A stretch of 64,000 nt of DNA from Fistulifera solaris (lineage: Eukaryota): the NCBI GenBank assembly GCA_030295235.1, contig AP026151.1, positions 496,001-560,000 on the forward strand, read 5' to 3'. The notes under the pieces are model-generated. The model was not told the DNA's origin. It did no database searches and saw only the letters and a list, made by a program, of their open reading frames with translations. Positions 5,290 to 45,084 of this stretch are shown here, in pieces. The first letter of the stretch is position 1. Each line of letters starts with the position of its first letter. Position numbers and translations under genes: made by a program.

Positions 5290-7664
5290 TCAATAGCCTA
5301 CAGTATGGAGGCATTCCATAAAGACATTGACGTCCACCCGTGCTTTCGGATTGCCCTGTTTGGCCATTTCCGCCACCATCAACAACTGCTTGATACCGAT
5401 CGGTTTCGCAATCGCCTTGGCGATGCTTTTTGATTCCTTTTCACCCATATGAGCCGCGACGCGTAAGACTTCCATGATTTGACTGGGTTGATCCAACAAC
5501 GGAACGCTCTGTTGAATGCCAAAGGCCGACGTCAAGCCCAAATCTTCCAACAAGTGCGGGACCGAAGTCGTACCAATGACAAGCAAACGACGTCCGTCAT
5601 CGGGTGGGACTTTCTTCAACAGCACGAGCAAGGTTTGCAACACGGTGTTACTGAAACGTGGTCCGATGGGGACGTATTCAATCAATCGCTCAATGTCGTC
5701 CAAAAAGATAATCGACAAGGAGGACTTGTACGAATCCATAAATGCTTTGTGGATCATTTGCGATTTCGATGTTTCCGAATAACCAATCATTTCATCGGCC
5801 GATACCATGCGGACAAAGGGAAAACCCGAGTCGACGGCGATTTTGGCCGCAATGGCGGTCTTGCCCGTATTCGCATGACCGGCCAGCAATACGGTCATGA
5901 GGGGGGTCTTGGAGGATGTGCGCACTTGATTGACGAGACGTTCCAATGTACCCATAAACAAATCGAACGAGTCACCGTACGGAACAAAGCCGTTGCGATA
6001 GCATGCCTTGAGTTCCTGCGACTTTGCACCAAATTTGGGTTCGACATCTCCCAAGGCGCGTTCAAAGTCTTCGTACTGCAAAATTAACTTTTTCGTATCG
6101 GGTGCCTTCTTCAAATCCTTCACATCGACACAACGAGTGAGTGCGTATGACGACGCCGCCTTGACGAGACCTTCAATTTCGGCACCGGAAAAGTTCTTGC
6201 ACTTCTCGGCAATTTCCGGGAGTCGGTCCAAAACTTCGGGCGTAATGCGCTTGGCTTCTCGCATGTTGCGCGTGTGAATGCCGAGAATTTGCAAGCGTCC
6301 CTGCAGATCGGGCAAACCAATCTCTACGTGGACTTCCAAACGACCGGGTCGGAGCAACGCATCATCAATCATATCCTTTCGATTGGTCATACCAATCAAG
6401 AGAATGTTGTTGAGGGAATCGACACCATCAATTTTGGACAGCAACTGATTCACAACAGAATCCGAGACACCGGTTCCATCTTTGACCGTACCACGTTGCT
6501 TGCAAATAGCATCCATTTCGTCCATAATGATAATATGCAACATACTTTGGTCTCCCATTTCGTTCTGTTCTTTTTCTGCCTCTACAAAAAGTTCTCTGAT
6601 CTTTTCTTCACTGCCGCCCACAAACTTATTGAGAACTTCGGGACCGTTCACTGCAGGAAAGGCGAAATGTGAATGAAAATGAAATGAATACATGAGTGTG
6701 TAAGTTGAATGTCAACAAGGAACACTGAATTCCATTCTCTCCACTTACCAATTTTGGGTTCACGCGCATTGAGCGCTTTCCCAATTTGTCGCGCAATCAA
6801 TGTTTTCCCACATCCCGGTGGTCCATAGAGCAACATGCCTCGGACATGATTGATTCCCATCTGCTTGATGATATGCGCGGGCCAAATCCGACTCGCAAAG
6901 GCCCGTCGAAAGATTTGATTGAATTCGGCATCGAGTCCCCCAATACCCAATTTTTCGAAATCAAAATCGTTGACAAAGATTGAATTGGCTCCACCACCCG
7001 CGCCTTCAACAATGAATTCACCCGTCAACACAAACGCGGTCGTGCCTTCGGCTCGTTTGAATCGAATTTGAGTCGATGACACCAACTGTCCCATATTCGT
7101 ATCCAACGTGGGAATTTCTCCACTTCCTTCTTTGCTTTTCCGACGTTGTTTCGGATCAATGGCGGCCAATTTGTGGACGGTAATTTCCAGTTTCGTTCCT
7201 TCAAAATCAATTGCCATGGACTGTCCGACCGCCAGCACTTGTTCTTCGAGGACCAACAAGACGGTTTGGGCCAATCGTTCGGTATCCAAATCGTGCGGAC
7301 GCGATCCTTTGGCGGCCGCCGCTTTGCTCAAAGTATCGACCGTCATTTCCAACAAAGCCAAGGCGGCGACCGGTCGAGGGAGTGGCGTTAAGGTGACGGC
7401 AGCCGCTAATGACAATTTGGCAAAGCGTCGTTGTAAACCATTGAGCGCGACTTGTTCGTCCGTAATGCCCGAATTGGCTTCGACGGCGTACGGATGTCCA
7501 TTCAATGTGATCAAATGGGCTGTTCCTCCGCAAACAGGTTCCACTTGGTGCTGTGCAAAGAATTGTTGCATTTGTGTCATGTTATCGGGACTGATGTATA
7601 TTTTATTTGTCAAAGCCAACCGGTTGGACGGTAAATTGGCAACTTGGAGTTTTAATTTGAACAT
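5290..7664 (-). CDS. NSF: Vesicle-fusing ATPase NSF/Sec18; intron 6651-6748
   Basis: [44 protein letters not shown] across a GTAAGT..CAG intron, RPGRLEV, and second AAA domain GHANTGKT / IGPRFSN. Confidence 0.97.
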
Positions 7665-8184: not shown

Positions 8185-10967
8185 ATGACAGTCACAACAC
8201 CTCTTACTGGAGGACGTGCTCGATCATCTTCGGTCGGAACCGATTCATTCAAAATATCCCCTTCCTATTCTCCGTTGCGACCCGAACAACTGCCTCATCA
8301 CCACTCCTCGTATGGAGCCACCACCGCGCCCTTGTTGCCACTCCCGCAAGAAGAACCGGTACAGCCACTTCGATTCTATCGCATTTTGCAATATTTCGTA
8401 TACGCGACCATCAACGTCGTGATTGGTGTACCGGGATTGTACGGATACGCTTCCGTCATCTTTCATCATCCCGTCTTTCAACCGCACATGAATGCGTTGA
8501 GTAAATTGGTGCTATTGAGTAGCTTCTTACATCAATTGGCGTTTACTTTATGTTCAAGTTTACCGTTTGCGATTGGCATGGTGCAGGATGCCGGTTTGAT
8601 CTTTTGAGTTCCATGAGTACGTCTGTGGCGGAACAATTGACCGAGTATTATTCTGCGGAACAAGATCATCATCTGAGAGAACGCGCCATTCTCAGTACAA
8701 CCATTGTACTGTTATCGGGAGGTACCGCGTGTTTGGGATTGGTCCTCGTCATTATGGGCAAATTCAAATTGGCGAATGCGGTCGCCTATTTGCCCATGCC
8801 CGTTGTTGGAGGATATCTGGCGTTCATTGGTTATTTTTGTTTTCAAGCCGGTGTCGCCCTCTGTATCAGTCAACCCATGACGCGCGTCGAAGATTGGGCT
8901 TTGTTATTGCAATGGCCTCTCCTCAAATTGGCGTTACCGGGATTGGCCGCGGCGGTGGTCTTTACGTGGATTGCGCGCAATCCGAAGTATGATGCGTGGT
9001 TGCCCTTGGCTATGATGGCCGTTCCGGCGGCCTTTTATATCGTCGTGTGTGGCATTACGCGAGTTGGTTTGGACGGTGCTCGAGAACAAGGCTGGGTCGG
9101 ACCCGAATCACCCAGTGTGCCGGTATCGGAACTCTTTCATTTGGTCGATTGGTCACTGGTGCATTGGTCTTGTGTCGCGGATCTCTTATTGACTTGGGTT
9201 GGAATGGTCTTTGTGGTGTCTTTTGCGTCGTGTCTCGATGTTGCGGCCATTGCGATGGATATGGGAGAAGCACTGGATACGAACAAGGAGTTGGTCACCG
9301 TCGGGATCGGGAATGTATTGTCGGGGCTTGGATTTGGATTCACGGGGTCGTACATTTTTTCGCAAACAATTTTTACGTATCGCACCAATGTTCATTCCCG
9401 TTGGATTGGTGTCCTCGTCATGGTGGCCTATTTGTACATTATCACATCACCCGTCAATCTTCTACAAGTGTCTCCTCTCTTCTTCTTGGGTTCGACGCTG
9501 ATTTTCATTGGTTATGACTTGTTGTACGAGTGGCTTTTATTGATTCGACACAAGATTTTCCGCTCGGAGTATTTGATTGTGTGGGCCACTTTCTTGGCCA
9601 TTCAAGTGGTGGGAATGGATGCGGGGATCGTTTTGGGTATTTTGGTGAGCTTGGTCGATCATGTTGTGACTTCGGCAAAGCTGGTGCAAGTGACTCGCGT
9701 TTCCAAAAAATCACGTGCCGTGTGGTCGCCCCTCGAATCCAAAATATTGAATGAGCAAGCTTATCATTCCCAATCACCCAAAGTGATCGTTCTTGAAATT
9801 AGTGGCACTGTTTTCTTTGGAAGTTCCTTGCAGTTATTTCAACGAATGTTGGAAGAAACTCATTTGAGTTTCGAGAATGATGATGCGCATCACCATCCGT
9901 TTCATCAACCGGGATGGCAATCACCGCATACCAATTCGACCGCCTTGACACAAATCCGATCCCCCAAATCACCCAACGGACACCACCATAATGGCGCTCC
10001 ACCATCACAACATCGAGTCGTCTTTCGACCTCCGCAGTTCATCGTCTTGGATTTGACCCAGTTATCCGAATTGGATGCGTCGGCGTGTCGTGGTTGCTTT
10101 TTGCAGTTTGTGAGTATCTGCTCCAAACACAACGTGTTAGTGTGTGCGGCCGGACCGTCCCAACGCACGGATTGGATGTTGCGCAGTCACAATGTATGCT
10201 ATTCGACCGTTCCAGAAGAAGAAAAGCTGAAAGCGCAATGTTTACAATCCCACTATGCCACGACACAGCTCAATACGAAAATTGACAAGATGCTCGTCTT
10301 TGTTACGACGCTGGAAGCACTGGAATTTTGTGAAACGACCTTATTGCAACGGGCACATCGCACAACGGTCCTGTCCCCACTGCAACGACGCATACAACAA
10401 GGACAAACATTGACGGTGGCATCAATATTTCAACTCCTGTTGGATGCAACGGAGGAAGAAGAGGAATTGCTGAAATTGTTGGAGAGTGGTCGCTATCATG
10501 ATGAAATTTCTTTTCAAGCGGGTGATGTAGTGTTTGCGAAAGACACTCACGCCGATGCCTTTTATGTGGTTCTTCAAGGAAGTGTGGCGATAGTGTCCAC
10601 GTCCAGCACCCATCGCCGAAAATCCTTTCGGCAACCCTTTCCGGGGACGAATGCTGGTGCCCTGATAACACCGACATCACCCACCACCACGGCGACGACC
10701 CCCCGCCTGGACCCAAAATTAGCGGCTCACGCCACGAGTGTGTGGCCGACCGGAGGCGTCTTTGGATTTGTCGATTTTTGGTTGCAACGCCCTCGGGTCT
10801 TTCAAGTCGTGTGTTGCACCCAATCTCCTACTATATGCGCCAAAATGACGCATTCCCATTGGAATCTGTTGCAACAAGAGAATGAAGCACTCGCGGCTTT
10901 GGTGCAGCGCGTTTTATTAAATGCGAGCGTCGCGGATTTGGCGAATTGTACTTGTAGTGAAACCTAG
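8185..10967 (+). CDS. SulP/SLC26 family anion transporter with STAS and cyclic-nucleotide-binding domains (frameshift ~8602)
   Basis: VQDAGLIF, YLPMPVVGGYLAFIG, GSYIFSQT, many TM segments, STAS motifs VFFGSS and LDAS, cNMP-like region GDVVF..FYVVLQGSV..GGVFG. Confidence 0.88.
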
Positions 10968-13287: not shown

Positions 13288-13798
13288 AGCAACTGCTTAT
13301 ATCTCGGAAGTGCTTTGGGCATTGACAGTCTTGGTGATCGATCCTCTTGGCTTCTCGTTTGTAAAGCAAAATCAAACAAATGTTTCGTCGAAAGGCGTCG
13401 TCCGAGACGCCGAAGCCGAAGAGGCATTTGTGACTTTTCATGAAGGCGATCTTATCCCTTCTTGTCCCATCCGGTCATGTTTGCTACTTCGTTGTTCACA
13501 GTGCTCCGAAACGCTATTTTCTTAGCCGTGGTCCACTTCGTGTTTATTGTCTCTCTCCGAAAAAGTACTGTCCATCGACAGGTTCAAAGGTAACCGTGAT
13601 GGTCTGTCGGTTGCACGCATCGACAATGAACCAAATAAGCTGCGCTGCTTCGACAAAAGTTTTCGAATGAATTCAATCGAAGAGGATCATTATTGTGGGT
13701 CTGCTAGCAAACAAGCAAGTAGAAAATACTACAATTTTCGAAACTAATCGCATGAGAATGCGAGAGAGTCAAAGAGCCTTCGTGACGAACACTCCACA

Positions 13799-14530
13799 AT
13801 GAACGCGCCTACTTTGAATTTTGTTGAAGCAACTGAGGTGCGTAACAGATCGCAGCCAGCGTCGATCCAAGAATTCTTTTTTCCAATGAAGGATGCGTTG
13901 TTCTACATGAGATTGCTTACTTTCTCGGTTTCGAGATGTTGTGGTGAGAAATCAATTTTATGCAGCGGAGGAAAATACAGGACTGCCGTATTGTGTGGTT
14001 TCAATGACGATTACTACGCAAATCAGATGTTAGACTCTTTGGACTGAATCCTTCCGTGTCGACACTTTGTGTACGCTAGATAGTATCTGAGAAACCTTTT
14101 GATCGCACACAGAGATTGCTGTCGGTGCTATCTATGTATCGTCGTCATTTCGCTTGCCTGCCTTGTTGAATTATTGGTCCCCGTAGGTTTACTGCTGACG
14201 ATGTTTCTATTTTTCCACTCAAAGACTGAAATAACCGTTGAATTCAAGCCCTTGGTAGAACCTGGAGTTGCTTACAAGCTTCAATGGAAGAACTACGCGC
14301 AAGATTGGCTATCTGCCGCGGGGAATGAGAAGAAGGTGACACCCGGCGGCAATCTAACGACCAAGGCCATTGCCACCAACTTAGAGCCCGGTCAAACGTA
14401 CTGTGTGCGTCTGGTGGTAATCGACAGTGCTACCGGCGTCGAAAAGGGCCCACCGGGAAAGGAGTTAGTCTTGGATACCGAACAAGTCGGATGTACGCCC
14501 AAAACCAGCAAGGGTTGCGTGATTCTGTGA
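13799..14530 (+). CDS. Small fibronectin type III-like protein with C-terminal CaaX (CVIL); exons 13799-13837 and 14225-14530
   Basis: Spliced ORF MNAPTLNFVEATE/TEITVEF..YKLQW..TNLEPGQTYCVRL..GCVIL; phase-0 GTGCGT..AAG intron. Confidence 0.8.
13997..14096 (+). ncRNA. Intronic box C/D snoRNA with two LSU rRNA antisense elements
   Basis: Terminal stem GGTTTC/GAAACC; box C ATGACGA 14004-14010; D' CTGA 14044-14047; C'-like GTGTCGA 14056-14062; box D CTGA 14087-14090; guides complementary to conserved LSU sequences CCAAGGAGUCUAACAU and UACUAUCUAGCG. Confidence 0.85.
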
Positions 14531-14701
14531 TGAGTATTATGCCTCGAGTGTCGTCGCACTTTACAGATTTCGTGCTGATGTCTTCGCCATAAAGATTAAA
14601 CTAGATTATTTTTTTCTCTTTGAGGAATGCCTAACTTCGAGACTAGAGTAACCCTATGAAAACTTCTTGGGTATCAATCTAAGCATTAACAAATACTCCT
14701 A

Positions 14702-15954: not shown

Positions 15955-16746
15955 CTAGTCTTCCATTGCGTCACGATCCTGCTGCAGCTTTTTCTTTGCC
16001 GTATAAATCAGTGACTTGACCATTGCCCGAATTTGCGCGTCTGTCATTACTTGCGAGTTCTGAATGGCGTTTTGTATGACAATGGTGTATTCCGGAAGCG
16101 TGCTATTGAGCCACAAGAATCCGTTGACCCCGATGGCAACTTCAAATTCGATCTTGGCCGCCGCAAGTTCCTGCAAAACGACGTTATCTGGTTGCAACAA
16201 CTGACGAGCCAAGCCTGTAGATATTCGAATTAAATTTCCACCCTTGAGTTCTCCGTAACATCCCTCCGATGTCATCCAGTCTTTCCGTGGCATTCCGGCA
16301 TCATGAGGTCCTAACAAGCACGACAGCGACGGTTCAAGCAACCCTTCATTTAAAGACGAGACCCGTGCGTAAACGACTTGACCAACCTGTAAATGTGGTT
16401 TGTTGCGTTTCGTGGCACCTTCGAACGACAAATTCGATAGAATCGCTAAATGCGACGCGCCGATATTGACACGATAATAGTCTCCGCCGTTGCCATCTTG
16501 TCCCATTCGATCTTCTACAATCCCAACGACTCTGTCTTCTAAACGAGGTCGATAACGGGAAAGATTGACTTGAACGAAATAGGTGTTTTTGTTTTGTTGC
16601 GACAACCAGCCCGCCAGGGTCGCGTACACTTGCTGCGAAGCGGCGTCGTAGCGCAGGCCCGTTCCTAGTTTCGACGAGAGAGGTATGCGTTCCGTCACAT
16701 TGTCGCCTGGTAAAACAGCAACTGTAGCTTGCGCTGATTTCGCCAT
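15955..16746 (-). CDS. RRP40: Exosome complex component RRP40 (EXOSC3)
   Basis: VLPGD, LGTGL, RYRPRLEDRVVGIV, LSFEGATKRNKPHL, FEVAIGVNG. Confidence 0.92.
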   Translation of the reverse strand: MAKSAQATVAVLPGDNVTERIPLSSKLGTGLRYDAASQQVYATLAGWLSQQNKNTYFVQVNLSRYRPRLEDRVVGIVEDRMGQDGNGGDYYRVNIGASHLAILSNLSFEGATKRNKPHLQVGQVVYARVSSLNEGLLEPSLSCLLGPHDAGMPRKDWMTSEGCYGELKGGNLIRISTGLARQLLQPDNVVLQELAAAKIEFEVAIGVNGFLWLNSTLPEYTIVIQNAIQNSQVMTDAQIRAMVKSLIYTAKKKLQQDRDAMED

Positions 16747-17117
16747 GTAAATACTGGTCAAATAGAAATGAAAATGAAAATGATTGTTGTGGTTTTTTTG
16801 AGACTATGCGGCGCGACGCGCAAAAAAACTTGGGTAGACACGCGCGGACGGCCAGACGGAAAGCGACCCGGATGTATCATACAGTACAGAAGAGAGTGGC
16901 CTCCAACGAAGTTTTCTCGCGAAAACCGCAAACGGCGGGGACACACGATACAACCATGATGAACAGCGAGAAATATAATAATAAGGCTCTTCGTTTTGCA
17001 ATAAAGCAGTCATCGGTTCACAATTATACAACACGTGGTTTCTTTGAGGCAAGAACACGAATTGAAGTTGATTTACATCAGTTCTCGCCGGATGGAGTTC
17101 GCTTATGCTTCGTGAAA

Positions 17118-20865: not shown

Positions 20866-22669
20866 TTAACTCGATTGCTCGTCTTCGCATTTTCTCGTTA
20901 TCATTTCCATCATTTCATGACCAAACATCACGTCGACGCCTTGTGACGCAAAGAACTTGTTTACGCGCTCGATATCACGATTGAGAAGATCCATAGCGCC
21001 CGGGTGCTTATGATCCACAGCTTGCCCAAAATCGATGAAAACCACATGCAACTCGTCCATGTCTTTCTTTGACAATTCGTCACACCGATTCCCTATTGTG
21101 GATGCAGGAGCGATCAAAATATTGTATTCACTGAGATCTCCATGCACTAAGTGGGCCTTTAAATACAATCTGGCATTAACAGTTGAGTAAATGAATAAAG
21201 CATAGCAAACGCAACAGCATGTAATCTCACCTCTGAAGTGCTGTCACGACTTGTTCATATAACGTTGACCAACGCGAGCTGCCACGCCTTAGATCAAGCT
21301 CACGCAATTGTGGGGCAGGCCAACCATCTTCACCGATAAATTGCATAAACAGTATGTTCTCTTTTACCAAAAGCGGAGAGGGTACAGGGACACCGGCACG
21401 CTCAGCTCGGACTATATTTCGATATTCCTTTTCGGCCCACAAAGCCAGCTGCTCGTGAGGTGATGCTTTTCTGAAGGATTCTCTTCTATAGCGCGGGTCT
21501 CCATCTACATAATCGCCACGAGCGCGAAACTCCTGGATCTTCTTGAATATTTTTACAGCTACATCACTGGTACTCGTCTCAACACCATCCGCATGATGAA
21601 TAACCGCCTCTTTCCCTTCTTTGACGATACCATTCAAATGCTCGATGACGCCGTTATTAATCGCATGTGTAATGCATAATCTTACAGAAGGATCCATTCC
21701 GCGCTTGGTAGTATCTGCATCCGAATTGGCTCGCCCAGTTCCATGAGCAGCCACGCCTTTGTTCGTACTACTTTTCTTTAATGAGCTCATGAAGGAGTTG
21801 TAAGCACGATTGCCAACAATGACATCGTCATCATAGCGGTGATCCAAACCTAATCGGTGAGCATTGGAAAGACCATTCAACTCGACATCGTGCTTTGTCC
21901 TTATTTCATTGTCGGGTCCTATCACAGAGCTCTGATTTTGCCTAGCCCACTCGAGCCTTCCAGCTGTATTCATTCGAAAACCGGGATCTTGTTCCTGAGT
22001 CTCGTCCTCGACCAATCGTGGAGTATTCTTTCGTAAAGGCCATGCATCCATTTCCGCCTGAACCTCTGCTCTAGTTTTTATTCGAACGTTCCCCGTACAA
22101 GCATCTTGTCGTTGACGAGCCAAAACCGTCTCCTTTTCCTGTTCTTCTTGTGCTAAGCGTATCGCAAGCTCTAATGATTTTTTGTGTTCTACTTCGTCGG
22201 CCTCAAGCAGTGCCTTTTGTATTGCCAATTGATCTTCCAAAGATATCTCTTGGTCCGACAAAGCAGATGACAAGTGGGCGTTTATGTCTGCTGTGGCTCC
22301 AGGAGATATTAAACTCTCTCCATTGGAAACTCCGTCTGATTGCAGTAAAGCGCTATCACTTTCAACACTTGGGTCGATTTTCTCCTCCGAATTTTCGGCA
22401 GTGGCCTCTATGAGTGACAGTCGTAGTGCTTGCTGAAGGTACTCATCTTCATCTTCGTAATTGACAGCGGAATGCTCAACATCATTCTTTGAACGTTCGA
22501 TGGCTAATAACAAAGCCTGGTCTTCCTCATCCATCATCTCCGAATGCATTGCTGTTTCCGCACGCTTGCCGTCTTCTTCTTCTTTGAGTATCGACGCAAA
22601 ATTCGTCACAGGACCTCTGGAATGCGCCGCAACGCCCCATATACCATTTCCAGTGTTTCCCGTGTCCAT
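20866..22669 (-). CDS. RIO-family kinase, RIOK3-like; intron 21170-21230
   Basis: GKEAVI, AVKIFK, YVDGDPRY, WAEKEYRN, WPAPQL, LVHGDLSEYNIL, IDFGQAV; pre-kinase TKHD..N..L..N.AYN region. Confidence 0.85.
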
Positions 22670-43242: not shown

Positions 43243-45084
43243 CAAAAGGACAAACCTCCAATACGAAACATATCACCTCCGGTCATCTGGAGTGTTAATT
43301 TTGTCGAATAGCAATCAGAAGATAAAGCTGGCAATGCTAGTGTTTCCGTGAAATATTCACTGGTCAACTTTTCATGAAATCCCGAAAGCACAGTGGACGA
43401 AACTAACTTTTCACACTGATGGACAGTTGCTTCTACTGTGCTGTTGTACCACTTCTCCGAGTAACTCTTCATGTAAATAATTGTGATTGTTGTCACGGTA
43501 GAGTTGGTTGCAGAAGTATTTAGGTGAAGGACGGCAGTTCCATTTCGCGACCCGTACAAACCATAGTTTGTAGGCGGCCATGTCTGGACGTTTGTCCAGT
43601 TGTCTGACTTTACCAGAATTGATTCGATACCTTCAAAATGGCTGTGTTCGTCTTCTTTGCGCAAAGCAATCCATCCAAAAGGGCAACCCCTGGTTCGGTC
43701 CTCTGCAGTGCAGTTTTCAAAACTAGCAGCAAGATGATCCGACCATTCCTTGCCAAAGCCGTCGAGTGCAACTTTTTTATCAAGATGAGGACGGAAATAG
43801 GAATCGAGCATCTGGCTCGTTTGCTTTGAGCTCGGATTATGTTCCGCTGCTTTGCGTTCCAGTTGCTGCTCGCAAAGATCAACAATGATATGAAGAGAAT
43901 TAAAAGCAAATGCCAGGACGATAGCCACATGTCCTCCCCACGGAATATGCTTGCTATCACCCCTCCAGTCCACGAGAAGCTTTTTCTTCCTCGCTGTCGC
44001 TGAGCAGAAAATCTTGGATCATGTCGACAAAACTTATGGTCAGCACTTGATGATATCGCGTAAGTTTGCTTATTTCCGCACGATAACTTTCCACGGCTTC
44101 GACAGAATGTCCCTTTAAGAAGTTGACGGAAAAGTCATCCAGAAAAATAGCAAATGGTCGATCCTTTGAACAGCTGGTTAAATCCTGGATCACGTCGAGA
44201 AAGGCGGTAAACAGATTCTGGAAAGAGAGAGTGCCATCCTTTTGTTCACCACTGTGATACGAGAAATCATTGACGGCGTACGCATCAATGACGATATCGG
44301 GTCCTTGCGAAAGCATCGACAGGGGAAAGAGTCGCAGCTGGAGCATCATGGTAGCAAGTTGTGAACCCGATGCGCCAATCGCATAATTGACGACTCGTAT
44401 GGCATCAAAGCCCAGATAAGCGTTCACAAACCCTTGTAGGTGACCAGGCCACGCACACTGCCCTTGTTTCTTGACTTTGCCATTTCGTTCGCAGTTTGAG
44501 CCAGCTGTTGGAGACCCTCCAAAGACCAGGACTTGAAGAGGTGGGTTGTTGACTGCGTCCTTGTACCTTTTCCATAAAATATCTAGAATGCGCCGCAATT
44601 TAATGTCATCTGCAGCCAGGGTCGCTGGTCGAACGGATCTTCGCAGGACAGTAAGCGGAAGTGCTAGAACGACTCGGTCGATCAGAAGCTTGAGTTCTTG
44701 GGAACGTGATCCAAAAGGTTCATTCGCAGGACTGAATAACAAAGCCTCCTTGATGAGTGAAATGTCTTTGGTCCATATAGTACCAACGGAAGGTAAACCA
44801 CGTTGAGAATAGTTGCCATCGACCAGTCGATGGCAAATTTGCGCGAGAGAGTCGTCGTCGTTCTTCCAAACTAGTTGATTGCCTCCCAACTGGAGTTCCT
44901 CCACACGTTCCTTTGGTATATGAAGCGCCGCAATCGCTTTGAAATCGTTCCTTAAATATAGTGAGAAGATTTCGTGCAGGGACACCAAGAAGCACAGTGC
45001 GAGCGCCAGAAAAGCCACTACATGTTTGATCTTGATCGGCGAAGTAATTCCGATGTTTTTTTTCGTTGTTGTATCATCCGACAT
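43239..45084 (-). CDS. Type II membrane SGNH-hydrolase-like protein (frameshift ~43962)
   Basis: N-terminal TM; blocks VLVFGGSPTAG, NYAIGASGS, DIVIDAYAVND, KHIPWGGH. Confidence 0.7.

What the first reader, a model, noticed from the sequence alone, without database searches (positions are those of the whole stretch)
13997..14096. Double-guide box C/D snoRNA hidden in an oversized intron of a tiny prenylated FN3-like gene
Seen: the 387-nt intron (13838-14224) is several times longer than most introns here (~60-100 nt). It contains a 6-bp terminal stem, boxes C, D', C' and D, and two antisense tracts placed 1 nt upstream of D' and D. From recalled conserved LSU rRNA sequence, ATGTTAGACTCTTTGG pairs with CCAAGGAGUCUAACAU (16 nt, one G-U), and CGCTAGATAGTA pairs with UACUAUCUAGCG (12 nt). 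The D+5 rule predicts Am at the second A of CCAAG and Um at UAC[U]AUC. Inference: these appear shifted from the neighbouring yeast/human sites I recall, so the guide pair may be lineage-specific. The host is not a typical ribosome-biogenesis gene.
Basis: partly seen in the sequence, partly recalled or inferred. Interest (0 to 1): 0.75.

Follow-up and report, generated by a model that had tools for sequence, protein, structure and literature searches.

The report
Intronic two-guide box C/D snoRNA
A 100-base stretch inside a spliced intron has every sequence hallmark of an ordinary small nucleolar RNA that would direct two sugar methylations on the large ribosomal RNA, though its expression, its targets in this organism's own rRNA and its conservation in relatives could not be tested.

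Summary
Window 13997-14096 (+) has a perfect 6-bp terminal stem, box C AUGACGA (6 of 7 consensus positions), D' CUGA and D CUGA. Two antisense tracts each end 1 nt before a D-type box.

The 387-nt intron 13838-14224 is real. Contigs from 3 runs of one study join 13837 to 14225, GT..AG.

I collected eukaryotic LSU rRNA contigs with a primer outside the targets. The 16-nt target is exact in 10 of 43, and fully paired allowing G-U in 23 of 43. The 12-nt target is exact in 4 of 11.

Complementarity of 16 nt or more occurs at 10 of 127,956 window positions, and 12 nt or more at 0.8%. The box-and-stem layout alone is not significant.

Rfam gives no family. The predicted Am and Um sites are absent from the Arabidopsis and Dictyostelium maps I read.

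Not shown: a stable RNA, the methylations, this organism's own rRNA, or conservation in relatives.

The host is a small FN3 protein with a CaaX end, from a widespread family whose intron position is conserved.

Verdict: a well-supported new member of a known kind.

The parts
13799..13837 (+). Host gene exon 1 (39 nt, 13 codons, start of the FN3 domain)
   Evidence: ATG at 13799 and reading frame. The exon end is set by the spliced contigs. Family members without the interruption (P0027, P0039, P0058, P0088) read continuously across the equivalent junction.
13838..14224 (+). Spliceosomal intron, 387 nt, GT..AG, phase 0
   Evidence: Contigs of runs X2, X3 and X4 skip exactly these 387 nt. X1 contigs cover the intron unspliced.
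13997..14096 (+). Predicted box C/D snoRNA, 100 nt, same strand as the host gene
   Evidence: Boxes, stem and guides read directly. No Rfam family matches.
13997..14002 (+). 5' half of the terminal stem, GGTTTC
   Evidence: Perfect 6-bp complement of 14091-14096. It pairs in both the MFE and the centroid fold.
14004..14010 (+). Box C, AUGACGA
   Evidence: Matches RUGAUGA at 6 of 7 positions (U5 to C). The GA dinucleotide and G6 are kept.
14027..14042 (+). D' guide, 16 nt, antisense to LSU rRNA CCAAGGAGUCUAACAU with one G-U
   Evidence: The exact target directly follows the primer site in 10 of 43 LSU-like contigs, and 23 of 43 pair fully with G-U allowed. The antisense core is part of a published LSU reverse primer (PMC13739419).
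14044..14047 (+). Box D', CUGA, 1 nt after the guide
14057..14062 (+). Possible degenerate box C', UGUCGA
   Evidence: Only 4 of 6 consensus positions match. It lies within the 10-nt palindrome GTGTCGACAC. The assignment is uncertain.
14074..14085 (+). D guide, 12 nt, antisense to LSU rRNA UACUAUCUAGCG
   Evidence: Exact target in L055 and L073 (both Rfam LSU_rRNA_eukarya), and in L088 and L096. That is 4 of 11 LSU pieces spanning the site. The string is part of the Candida 25S reverse primer CA-INT-R (PMC11395346).
14087..14090 (+). Box D, CUGA, 1 nt after the guide and directly before the stem
14091..14096 (+). 3' half of the terminal stem, GAAACC
14225..14530 (+). Host gene exon 2 (101 codons plus stop): rest of the FN3 domain, DTEQVGCTPK motif, C-terminal CVIL
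   Evidence: Translation. fn3 scores 19.5 bits, below the 25-bit cut-off. Relatives P0003 and P0004 pass at 27.6 and 27.5 bits. All 5 sequences in the alignment end C-x-I-L.

Best explanation
Window 13997-14096 (+) encodes an intron-borne box C/D small nucleolar RNA with two working guides.

Inferred from the established biology of intronic snoRNAs: the host pre-mRNA is spliced, the 387-nt intron is debranched, and exonucleases trim it back to the RNA protected by the core proteins. These proteins (Snu13/15.5K, Nop56, Nop58, fibrillarin) assemble on the kink-turn that boxes C and D form next to the 6-bp terminal stem.

Shown as complementarity to eukaryotic LSU rRNA: the 16-nt tract before D' pairs with CCAAGGAGUCUAACAU at the start of LSU domain II. 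The 12-nt tract before D pairs with UACUAUCUAGCG, just 5' of the snR13/U15 site near the peptidyl-transferase region.

Inferred by the fifth-nucleotide rule: fibrillarin would 2'-O-methylate the second A of CCAAGG and the U at position 4 of UACUAUC.

The host is an expressed small FN3 protein with a CaaX end, whose function is unrelated to ribosomes.
For: - All defining sequence elements are present in the right order, spacing and strand.
- The intron is removed in contigs of 3 runs from one study.
- LSU contigs were collected with a primer outside the targets. The 16-nt target is exact in 10 of 43, and fully paired with G-U allowed in 23 of 43.
- The 12-nt target is exact in 4 of 11 LSU pieces spanning it. 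Two of the four are Rfam-confirmed eukaryotic LSU.
- One assembly (G003) carries both exact targets, in L060 and L088.
- Both guide strings occur inside published LSU rDNA reverse primers.
- Chance level: 16 nt or more at 10 of 127,956 anchors (3 of them the candidate itself), and 12 nt or more at 0.82%.
- The candidate is the only layout hit in the window with a stem of 6 bp or more.
- Both targets lie in the conserved LSU core, not in expansion segments.
- The 3' splice site sits at the same codon boundary in all 5 close relatives. It does so in many more distant family members too. This fits the positional conservation reported for introns that carry RNA genes (PMC3675471; title and start of abstract only).
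Against: - No RNA evidence for a stable RNA of about 100 nt. The runs found are assembled contigs and cannot show one.
- This organism's own rRNA was not available, because no genome is held.
- Box C has a C at position 5, and box C' is poor at 4 of 6.
- The 12-nt target is exact in only 4 of 11 LSU pieces. The other 7 differ by 1 or more bases. Two of them (L035, L058) pair at no more than 8 of 12 positions and may not be aligned at the homologous site.
- Rfam finds nothing even at E up to 10.
- The metagenome scan for guide 1 plus D' gave 14 loci, and none encodes a relative of the host protein. Either the orthologous loci are not in that collection, or they do not keep those exact 19 bases. 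Conservation in relatives is therefore unshown.
- Fold energy is ordinary, z = -0.21. This is normal for C/D RNAs.
Confidence: 0.82

Rival explanations
1. It is a real intronic box C/D snoRNA, but only the 16-nt D' guide is functional. The 12-nt match before box D would be fortuitous, or would serve only as accessory pairing.
For: A 12-nt anchored match (at most 1 G-U) to the rRNA panel occurs at 0.82% of window positions. About 3 of the 359 CTGA sites are expected to have one by chance. The exact 12-mer is present in only 4 of 11 LSU pieces spanning the site.
Against: The match sits in exactly the required register, 1 nt before the D box of an RNA already supported by its other guide. It has no G-U or mismatch. 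It targets a core LSU stretch. Given the D' guide, the chance of this is about 0.008.
Confidence: 0.08
2. It is a decaying or silent snoRNA copy. The sequence descends from a working snoRNA but no longer accumulates, for example because box C carries C at position 5 and box C' is degenerate.
For: No evidence of a stable RNA. Box C deviates from consensus and box C' is weak. No conserved copy was found beside a host-gene relative.
Against: The stem is perfect, and D, D' and both guides are intact, with no mismatch apart from one G-U. A decaying copy would be expected to lose these first. The altered box C position is the U-U pair position of stem II rather than the sheared G-A pairs (recalled kink-turn knowledge, not tested here).
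Confidence: 0.07
3. It is a chance look-alike in an ordinary long intron.
For: The layout alone (box C variant, CUGA, stem of 6 bp or more) is expected 0.29 times per window of random sequence. The fold is unremarkable.
Against: For the joint chance, the layout's 0.29 is multiplied by the chance of a 16-nt guide at an internal CTGA (about 8e-5 per anchor) and by the chance of a 12-nt guide at the D box (0.008). This product is far below 1e-4 per window.
Confidence: 0.01

Closest known systems
Canonical eukaryotic intronic box C/D snoRNAs with two guides (for example Arabidopsis U15, or the Ostreococcus tauri intronic Ot-CDsno RNAs)
   Same: Size of about 100 nt. Terminal stem, C and D boxes, an internal D' box, and two antisense tracts each ending 1 nt before a D-type box. 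One snoRNA per intron on the host's strand. Hosts in O. tauri also include non-ribosomal genes (supplement of PMC7671301).
   Different: No sequence-family match in Rfam. Box C is AUGACGA. The two target positions are not in the O. tauri predicted list (Table S4). The first site cannot be mapped onto O. tauri numbering with certainty.
U18 / SNORD18 and snR58 / SnoR58Y (neighbouring LSU sites)
   Same: They guide methylation in the same conserved stretch at the start of LSU domain II. The sites are Arabidopsis A661 (U18) and C675/U676 (SnoR58Y) (Table 1 of PMC8053127). The U18 site equals yeast Am649 and human Am1313 (Table 1 of PMC8817022).
   Different: The site predicted here lies between them: 8 nt after the U18 site and 6 nt before the SnoR58Y site, which is A669 in Arabidopsis numbering. 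I counted this myself on plant-like LSU contigs such as L081. It is not methylated in Arabidopsis and is not listed for Dictyostelium.
snR13 / U15 / SNORD15
   Same: It targets the same conserved LSU segment ending in GCGAAACC. The sites are Arabidopsis A2282 and G2289, yeast Am2281 and human Am3764.
   Different: The U predicted here is 10 nt upstream, U2272 in Arabidopsis numbering by my counting. It is absent from the Arabidopsis and Dictyostelium tables. There is no sequence similarity by Rfam.

Membership tests
Box C/D snoRNA (class) | Box C (RUGAUGA) near the 5' end | tested here: met
   AUGACGA at 14004-14010, 6 of 7 positions, U5 to C.
Box C/D snoRNA (class) | Box D (CUGA) near the 3' end, brought next to box C by a short terminal stem | tested here: met
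   CUGA at 14087-14090. Perfect 6-bp stem 13997-14002 / 14091-14096, formed in both the MFE and the centroid fold.
Box C/D snoRNA (class) | Internal D' and C' boxes | tested here: inconclusive
   D' CUGA at 14044-14047 is perfect. The best C' candidate, UGUCGA at 14057-14062, matches 4 of 6 positions. C' is often unrecognisable in accepted snoRNAs (the legend of Figure 2 in PMC8053127 notes this for U15.1a).
Box C/D snoRNA (class) | Antisense tract of 10 nt or more to rRNA ending 1 nt before D or D', so that the fifth upstream nucleotide pairs with the target | tested here: met
   16 nt (1 G-U) and 12 nt (0 G-U) against eukaryotic LSU rRNA contigs. Tested on other eukaryotes' rRNA, not on this organism's own.
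Box C/D snoRNA (class) | Accumulates as a stable RNA of about 60-150 nt bound by fibrillarin, Nop56, Nop58 and Snu13 | not testable with these tools
   Only assembled contigs of 4 runs were available, and they cannot show RNA ends or levels.
Box C/D snoRNA (class) | 2'-O-methylation present at the predicted rRNA positions | not testable with these tools
   No modification data are available for this organism.
Any curated Rfam snoRNA family | Match to the family covariance model | tested here: not met
   0 matches at gathering score over the whole window. 0 matches at E up to 10 over 13700-14400.
Fibronectin type III domain (PF00041), host protein | Score at or above Pfam's gathering cut-off (25 bits) | tested here: inconclusive
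   The window's exon 2 scores 19.5 bits. Relatives P0003 and P0004 score 27.6 and 27.5 bits, P0002 21.1 and P0005 22.4.
CaaX prenylation substrates, host protein | Cysteine four residues from the C terminus, conserved in relatives | tested here: met
   The window protein ends CVIL. All 5 aligned sequences end C-x-I-L. Prenylation itself was not tested.

The most novel reading that the evidence does not exclude
The snoRNA specifies two LSU rRNA ribose methylations that yeast, human, Arabidopsis and Dictyostelium all lack. One is at the base of domain II and one is just 5' of the snR13/U15 site near the peptidyl-transferase region. This would be a lineage-restricted addition to the ribosome's modification pattern in diatoms or their relatives. 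Carrying the snoRNA could also be what preserves this intron position across a widespread family of FN3 proteins with a CaaX end.
Probability: 0.4. Interest if true: 0.4.

Novelty: new member of a known kind. Interest (0 to 1): 0.3.

Why it matters
My three literature searches found no systematic catalogue of box C/D snoRNAs, and no rRNA methylation map, for diatoms or other stramenopiles (searches of the held library only). This locus gives a concrete snoRNA supported by sequence, with two testable target positions in functionally central parts of the large subunit rRNA.

It also shows that long introns in small, unrelated genes are worth screening for snoRNAs in such genomes. Beyond that it is an ordinary example of a well-understood class.

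Tried and rejected
- **Whole genome of the window.** Not held, so the organism's own rRNA could not be read.
- **Earlier findings.** Closed.
- **RNA runs.** No RNA holder is listed. The 4 runs found are contigs whose kind is only guessed. They show the splice but cannot show a small RNA.
- **Viral contigs, reverse complement of guide 1.** 18 loci, none of them rRNA by Rfam.
- **Metagenome scan, guide 1 plus D'.** 14 loci.
  - By eye on the printed flanks, 8 share near-identical flanks and look like one coding family.
  - None encodes a host relative.
  - L022 and L028 look like analogous guides, but L022 is cut 41 nt upstream and L028 has only a weak box C. Rfam names no family for either.
  - L025 shares 23 identical bases but has no snoRNA features.
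- **Viral contigs, host protein alignment.** No relative found.
- **The genome search.** The Rfam LSU model on handles failed or was not held. A 400-nt DNA query then worked.
- **Other guide-like matches in the window.** None has a proper box and stem context.
  - 28684: inside a hairpin-like GGCTTC...GAAGCC.
  - 54025 (-): 12 nt against a variable region.
  - 44109-44123: 15 nt against SSU, but followed by TTGA, with no stem.
  - About 28 anchors of 15 nt or more occur in the window, so these look like chance.
- **Minus-strand layout hit at 14148.** It overlaps the candidate, has only a 5-bp stem, and its 'guide' is the sense copy of the LSU tract. Rejected.
- **Mapping the first site onto Ostreococcus numbering.** Uncertain, because no U18 equivalent is listed.
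- **Full yeast and human site lists.** Not read. The absence of the two sites there rests on recall plus the partial cross-table in PMC8817022. A search of PMC5027482 found no occurrence of the strings 1321 or 3754, the positions I work out by offset from Am1313 and Am3764. Its site table was not seen.

Full report
**What is in the sequence**

Window 13997-14096 (+) reads, in order:
- GGTTTC, one A, then box C ATGACGA (14004-14010).
- A 16-nt spacer, then ATGTTAGACTCTTTGG (14027-14042), A, and CTGA (14044-14047).
- 26 nt that contain a poor C' candidate, TGTCGA (14057-14062).
- CGCTAGATAGTA (14074-14085), T, CTGA (14087-14090), and GAAACC.

The two ends form a perfect 6-bp stem. It appears in both the minimum-energy and the centroid fold. 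The overall folding energy is no better than that of shuffles, z = -0.21. Box C differs from RUGAUGA at one position (U5 to C), and C' matches only 4 of 6.

**The intron and the host gene**

The element lies on the coding strand inside a 387-nt GT..AG intron (13838-14224). The gene has two exons, 13799-13837 and 14225-14530.

Contigs of three public runs (one study; their kind is only guessed to be RNA) join 13837 to 14225 exactly. They span about 13676-14620, as a short spliced transcript would. A fourth run's contigs cover the intron unspliced. So the intron is real and is removed. Contigs cannot show whether a small RNA accumulates.

Exon 2 scores just under Pfam's cut-off for the fibronectin type III domain, 19.5 against 25 bits. 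Two relatives pass at 27.6 and 27.5 bits. The protein ends CVIL.

Five close relatives were found, including the window's own gene call. All keep a C-terminal C-x-I-L. All four foreign gene calls read from intron sequence into exon 2 across a Q codon, at the same boundary where the window has AAG. The 3' splice site is therefore positionally conserved.

A profile search of 1.84 billion representatives found 458 proteins at E up to 0.001 and 144 at E up to 1e-10. Many are large proteins with multiple FN3 repeats, and there are dozens of small single-domain ones. Four of them (P0027, P0039, P0058, P0088) have an uninterrupted N terminus that matches the window's exon 1-exon 2 junction. The host is thus a real, conserved, small FN3 protein with a CaaX end, with no evident tie to ribosome synthesis.

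**Do the guides match rRNA?**

No genome is held for this window, and the window contains no rRNA. I therefore collected eukaryotic LSU rRNA independently of the guides. I scanned prokaryote assemblies, which often hold contaminating eukaryotic rDNA, for the reverse complement of the LR3 primer. This primer site lies just upstream of the first target.

That reference is L073, which Rfam confirms as LSU_rRNA_eukarya together with SSU and 5.8S.

First target, among the 43 loci with 16 nt available:
- CCAAGGAGTCTAACAT is exact in 10.
- The guide pairs over all 16 positions, G-U allowed, in 23.
- Most of the remaining 20 differ in the last few bases after TCTAAC.

Second target, UACUAUCUAGCG:
- It is exact in L055 and L073, out of 8 loci that reach that far.
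- It is also exact in L088 and L096. L097 has one mismatch. All three were found by searching the same assemblies with a 400-nt probe.
- In total it is exact in 4 of 11 pieces.
- Assembly G003 holds both exact targets, in L060 and L088.

Two published primers give independent confirmation of what these strings are:
- The D guide is part of CA-INT-R, a reverse primer for Candida 25S rDNA (passage read in PMC11395346).
- The core of the D' guide is part of an LSU reverse primer used on dinoflagellates (passage read in PMC13739419).

This organism's own rRNA remains unseen. Since the bases after UCUAAC vary among eukaryotes, the outer three pairs of the 16-nt duplex are not certain here. The inner 13 or so lie in near-invariant sequence.

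**Is this more than chance?**

The layout alone is not. A box C variant, a CUGA and a stem of 6 bp or more within 55-150 nt occurs once in the window, at the candidate. It occurs 0.29 times on average in 100 simulated windows.

The guides are what count. Against a 21-kb rRNA panel, contiguous complementarity of 16 nt or more (at most one G-U) occurs at 10 of 127,956 positions, and three of those are the candidate itself. Complementarity of 12 nt or more occurs at 0.82% of positions.

With 359 CTGA sites in the window, about 0.03 would carry a 16-nt guide by chance. The chance that the next box D also carries a 12-nt guide in register is about 0.008. Combined with the layout, a chance origin is far below 1e-4.

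Other long matches in the window lack boxes and stems, and occur at the expected chance rate.

**Which positions, and are they known?**

By the fifth-nucleotide rule, the D' guide selects the second A of CCAAGG, and the D guide selects the U at position 4 of UACUAUC.

I counted along plant-like LSU contigs and fitted the spacing to Arabidopsis Table 1. That table lists A661 (U18), C675/U676 (SnoR58Y), and A2282 and G2289 (U15). On this numbering the two sites are A669 and U2272. Neither is among the Arabidopsis Nm sites (PMC8053127, table passages read).

The Dictyostelium table, with its yeast, human and Arabidopsis equivalents, lists no site 8 nt after the U18 site or 10 nt before the snR13/U15 site (PMC8817022, table passage read).

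The Ostreococcus predicted target list has the U15 equivalent (25S.A2124 and G2131) but nothing 10 nt upstream (supplement Table S4 of PMC7671301).

The full yeast and human lists were not read. Their lack of these sites is recalled.

Two metagenome loci suggest the first site is not unique to this lineage. L022 and L028 come from unknown AT-rich eukaryotes. They carry antisense tracts of about 22 and 20 nt to the same LSU stretch, in the same register before a CTGA. Their flanks extend the complementarity to LSU variants seen in other loci. Their snoRNA layouts are incomplete or weak.

**Mechanism**

Shown: sequence layout, strand, splicing of the intron, and complementarity to eukaryotic LSU rRNA.

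Inferred from the established biology of intronic box C/D snoRNAs: release from the debranched intron by exonucleases, protection by the core proteins assembled on the C/D kink-turn, and fibrillarin-catalysed 2'-O-methylation at the two positions.

The C at box C position 5 falls, from recalled kink-turn structure, at the U-U position of stem II rather than in the sheared G-A pairs. It should therefore be tolerated. This was not tested.

**What weakens the case**

- There is no small-RNA evidence and no modification data.
- The organism's own rRNA was not seen.
- Conservation in relatives was not shown. It returned no locus encoding a host relative. Either such contigs are not in that collection, or they do not keep those exact bases.
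- Rfam recognises no family. That is common for lineage-specific C/D RNAs, but it means family membership beyond the class cannot be claimed.

**Verdict**

This is a well-supported, ordinary intronic box C/D snoRNA with two guides. It is a new member of a known kind. A host outside ribosome biogenesis is not remarkable, because Ostreococcus intronic snoRNAs sit in comparably unrelated genes. The modest interest lies in the two target positions. They appear absent from the mapped model organisms, and my three searches found no snoRNA or rRNA methylation catalogue for diatoms or stramenopiles.

Noticed in passing
window 13799-14530 (+) and proteins P0002-P0154: The host belongs to a widespread family of very small single-FN3 proteins. 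They share a conserved DTEQVGCTPK-like motif and a C-terminal CaaX box. 63 of 68 small members held end C-x-x-x. The commonest last residues are L (26), Q (16), S (11) and M (6). The same FN3 type also occurs in very large multi-repeat proteins. A cytosolic, lipid-anchored FN3 domain is unusual, and its function is unknown.
   Followed up: partly
proteins P0017, P0021, P0023, P0026, P0033, P0035, P0037, P0038, P0040, P0041 and others: Many family members' gene calls start with non-homologous residues that end in Q or K just before the conserved T-x-I-x-V-x-F. This suggests that the phase-0 intron at this position is old and widespread in the family. Whether those introns carry a snoRNA could not be checked.
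   Followed up: no
L022 (match at 1269-1287, -) and L028 (match at 2001-2019, -): Two metagenome loci from AT-rich unknown eukaryotes (34% and 26% GC) carry antisense tracts of about 22 and 20 nt to the same LSU stretch. Each is followed by one base and CTGA, the same register as here. They may be functional analogues. L022 is cut by the contig end, and L028 has only a weak box C, TGATGC.
   Followed up: partly
L025 (match at 2001-2019, -): This locus shares 23 identical bases with the window (the 3' part of the guide, the spacer, D' and the next four bases). It has no other snoRNA features and no host-gene relative. Unexplained, possibly chance.
   Followed up: partly
window 15958-16761 (-): The next gene downstream encodes an RRP40-like exosome subunit (S1 and KH domains, E 7.9e-22). 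The exosome trims snoRNA 3' ends, but the adjacency is probably coincidental.
   Followed up: no
window 21230-22669 (-), 8550-10964 (+), 5293-6693 (-): Other genes in the window: a RIO-domain kinase, a SulP/STAS transporter with a cyclic-nucleotide-binding domain, and an NSF-like double AAA ATPase.
   Followed up: no
window 14181-14198 (+), same intron: A 13-nt tract, CCGTAGGTTTACT, followed by G and CTGA, is complementary (with 3 G-U pairs) to the conserved 3' end of SSU rRNA. No box C or stem goes with it, and matches with that many G-U pairs are common in the window. Probably chance.
   Followed up: partly
window 14055-14064 (+): A perfect 10-nt palindrome, GTGTCGACAC, lies between D' and the D guide and overlaps the putative C' box.
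   Followed up: no
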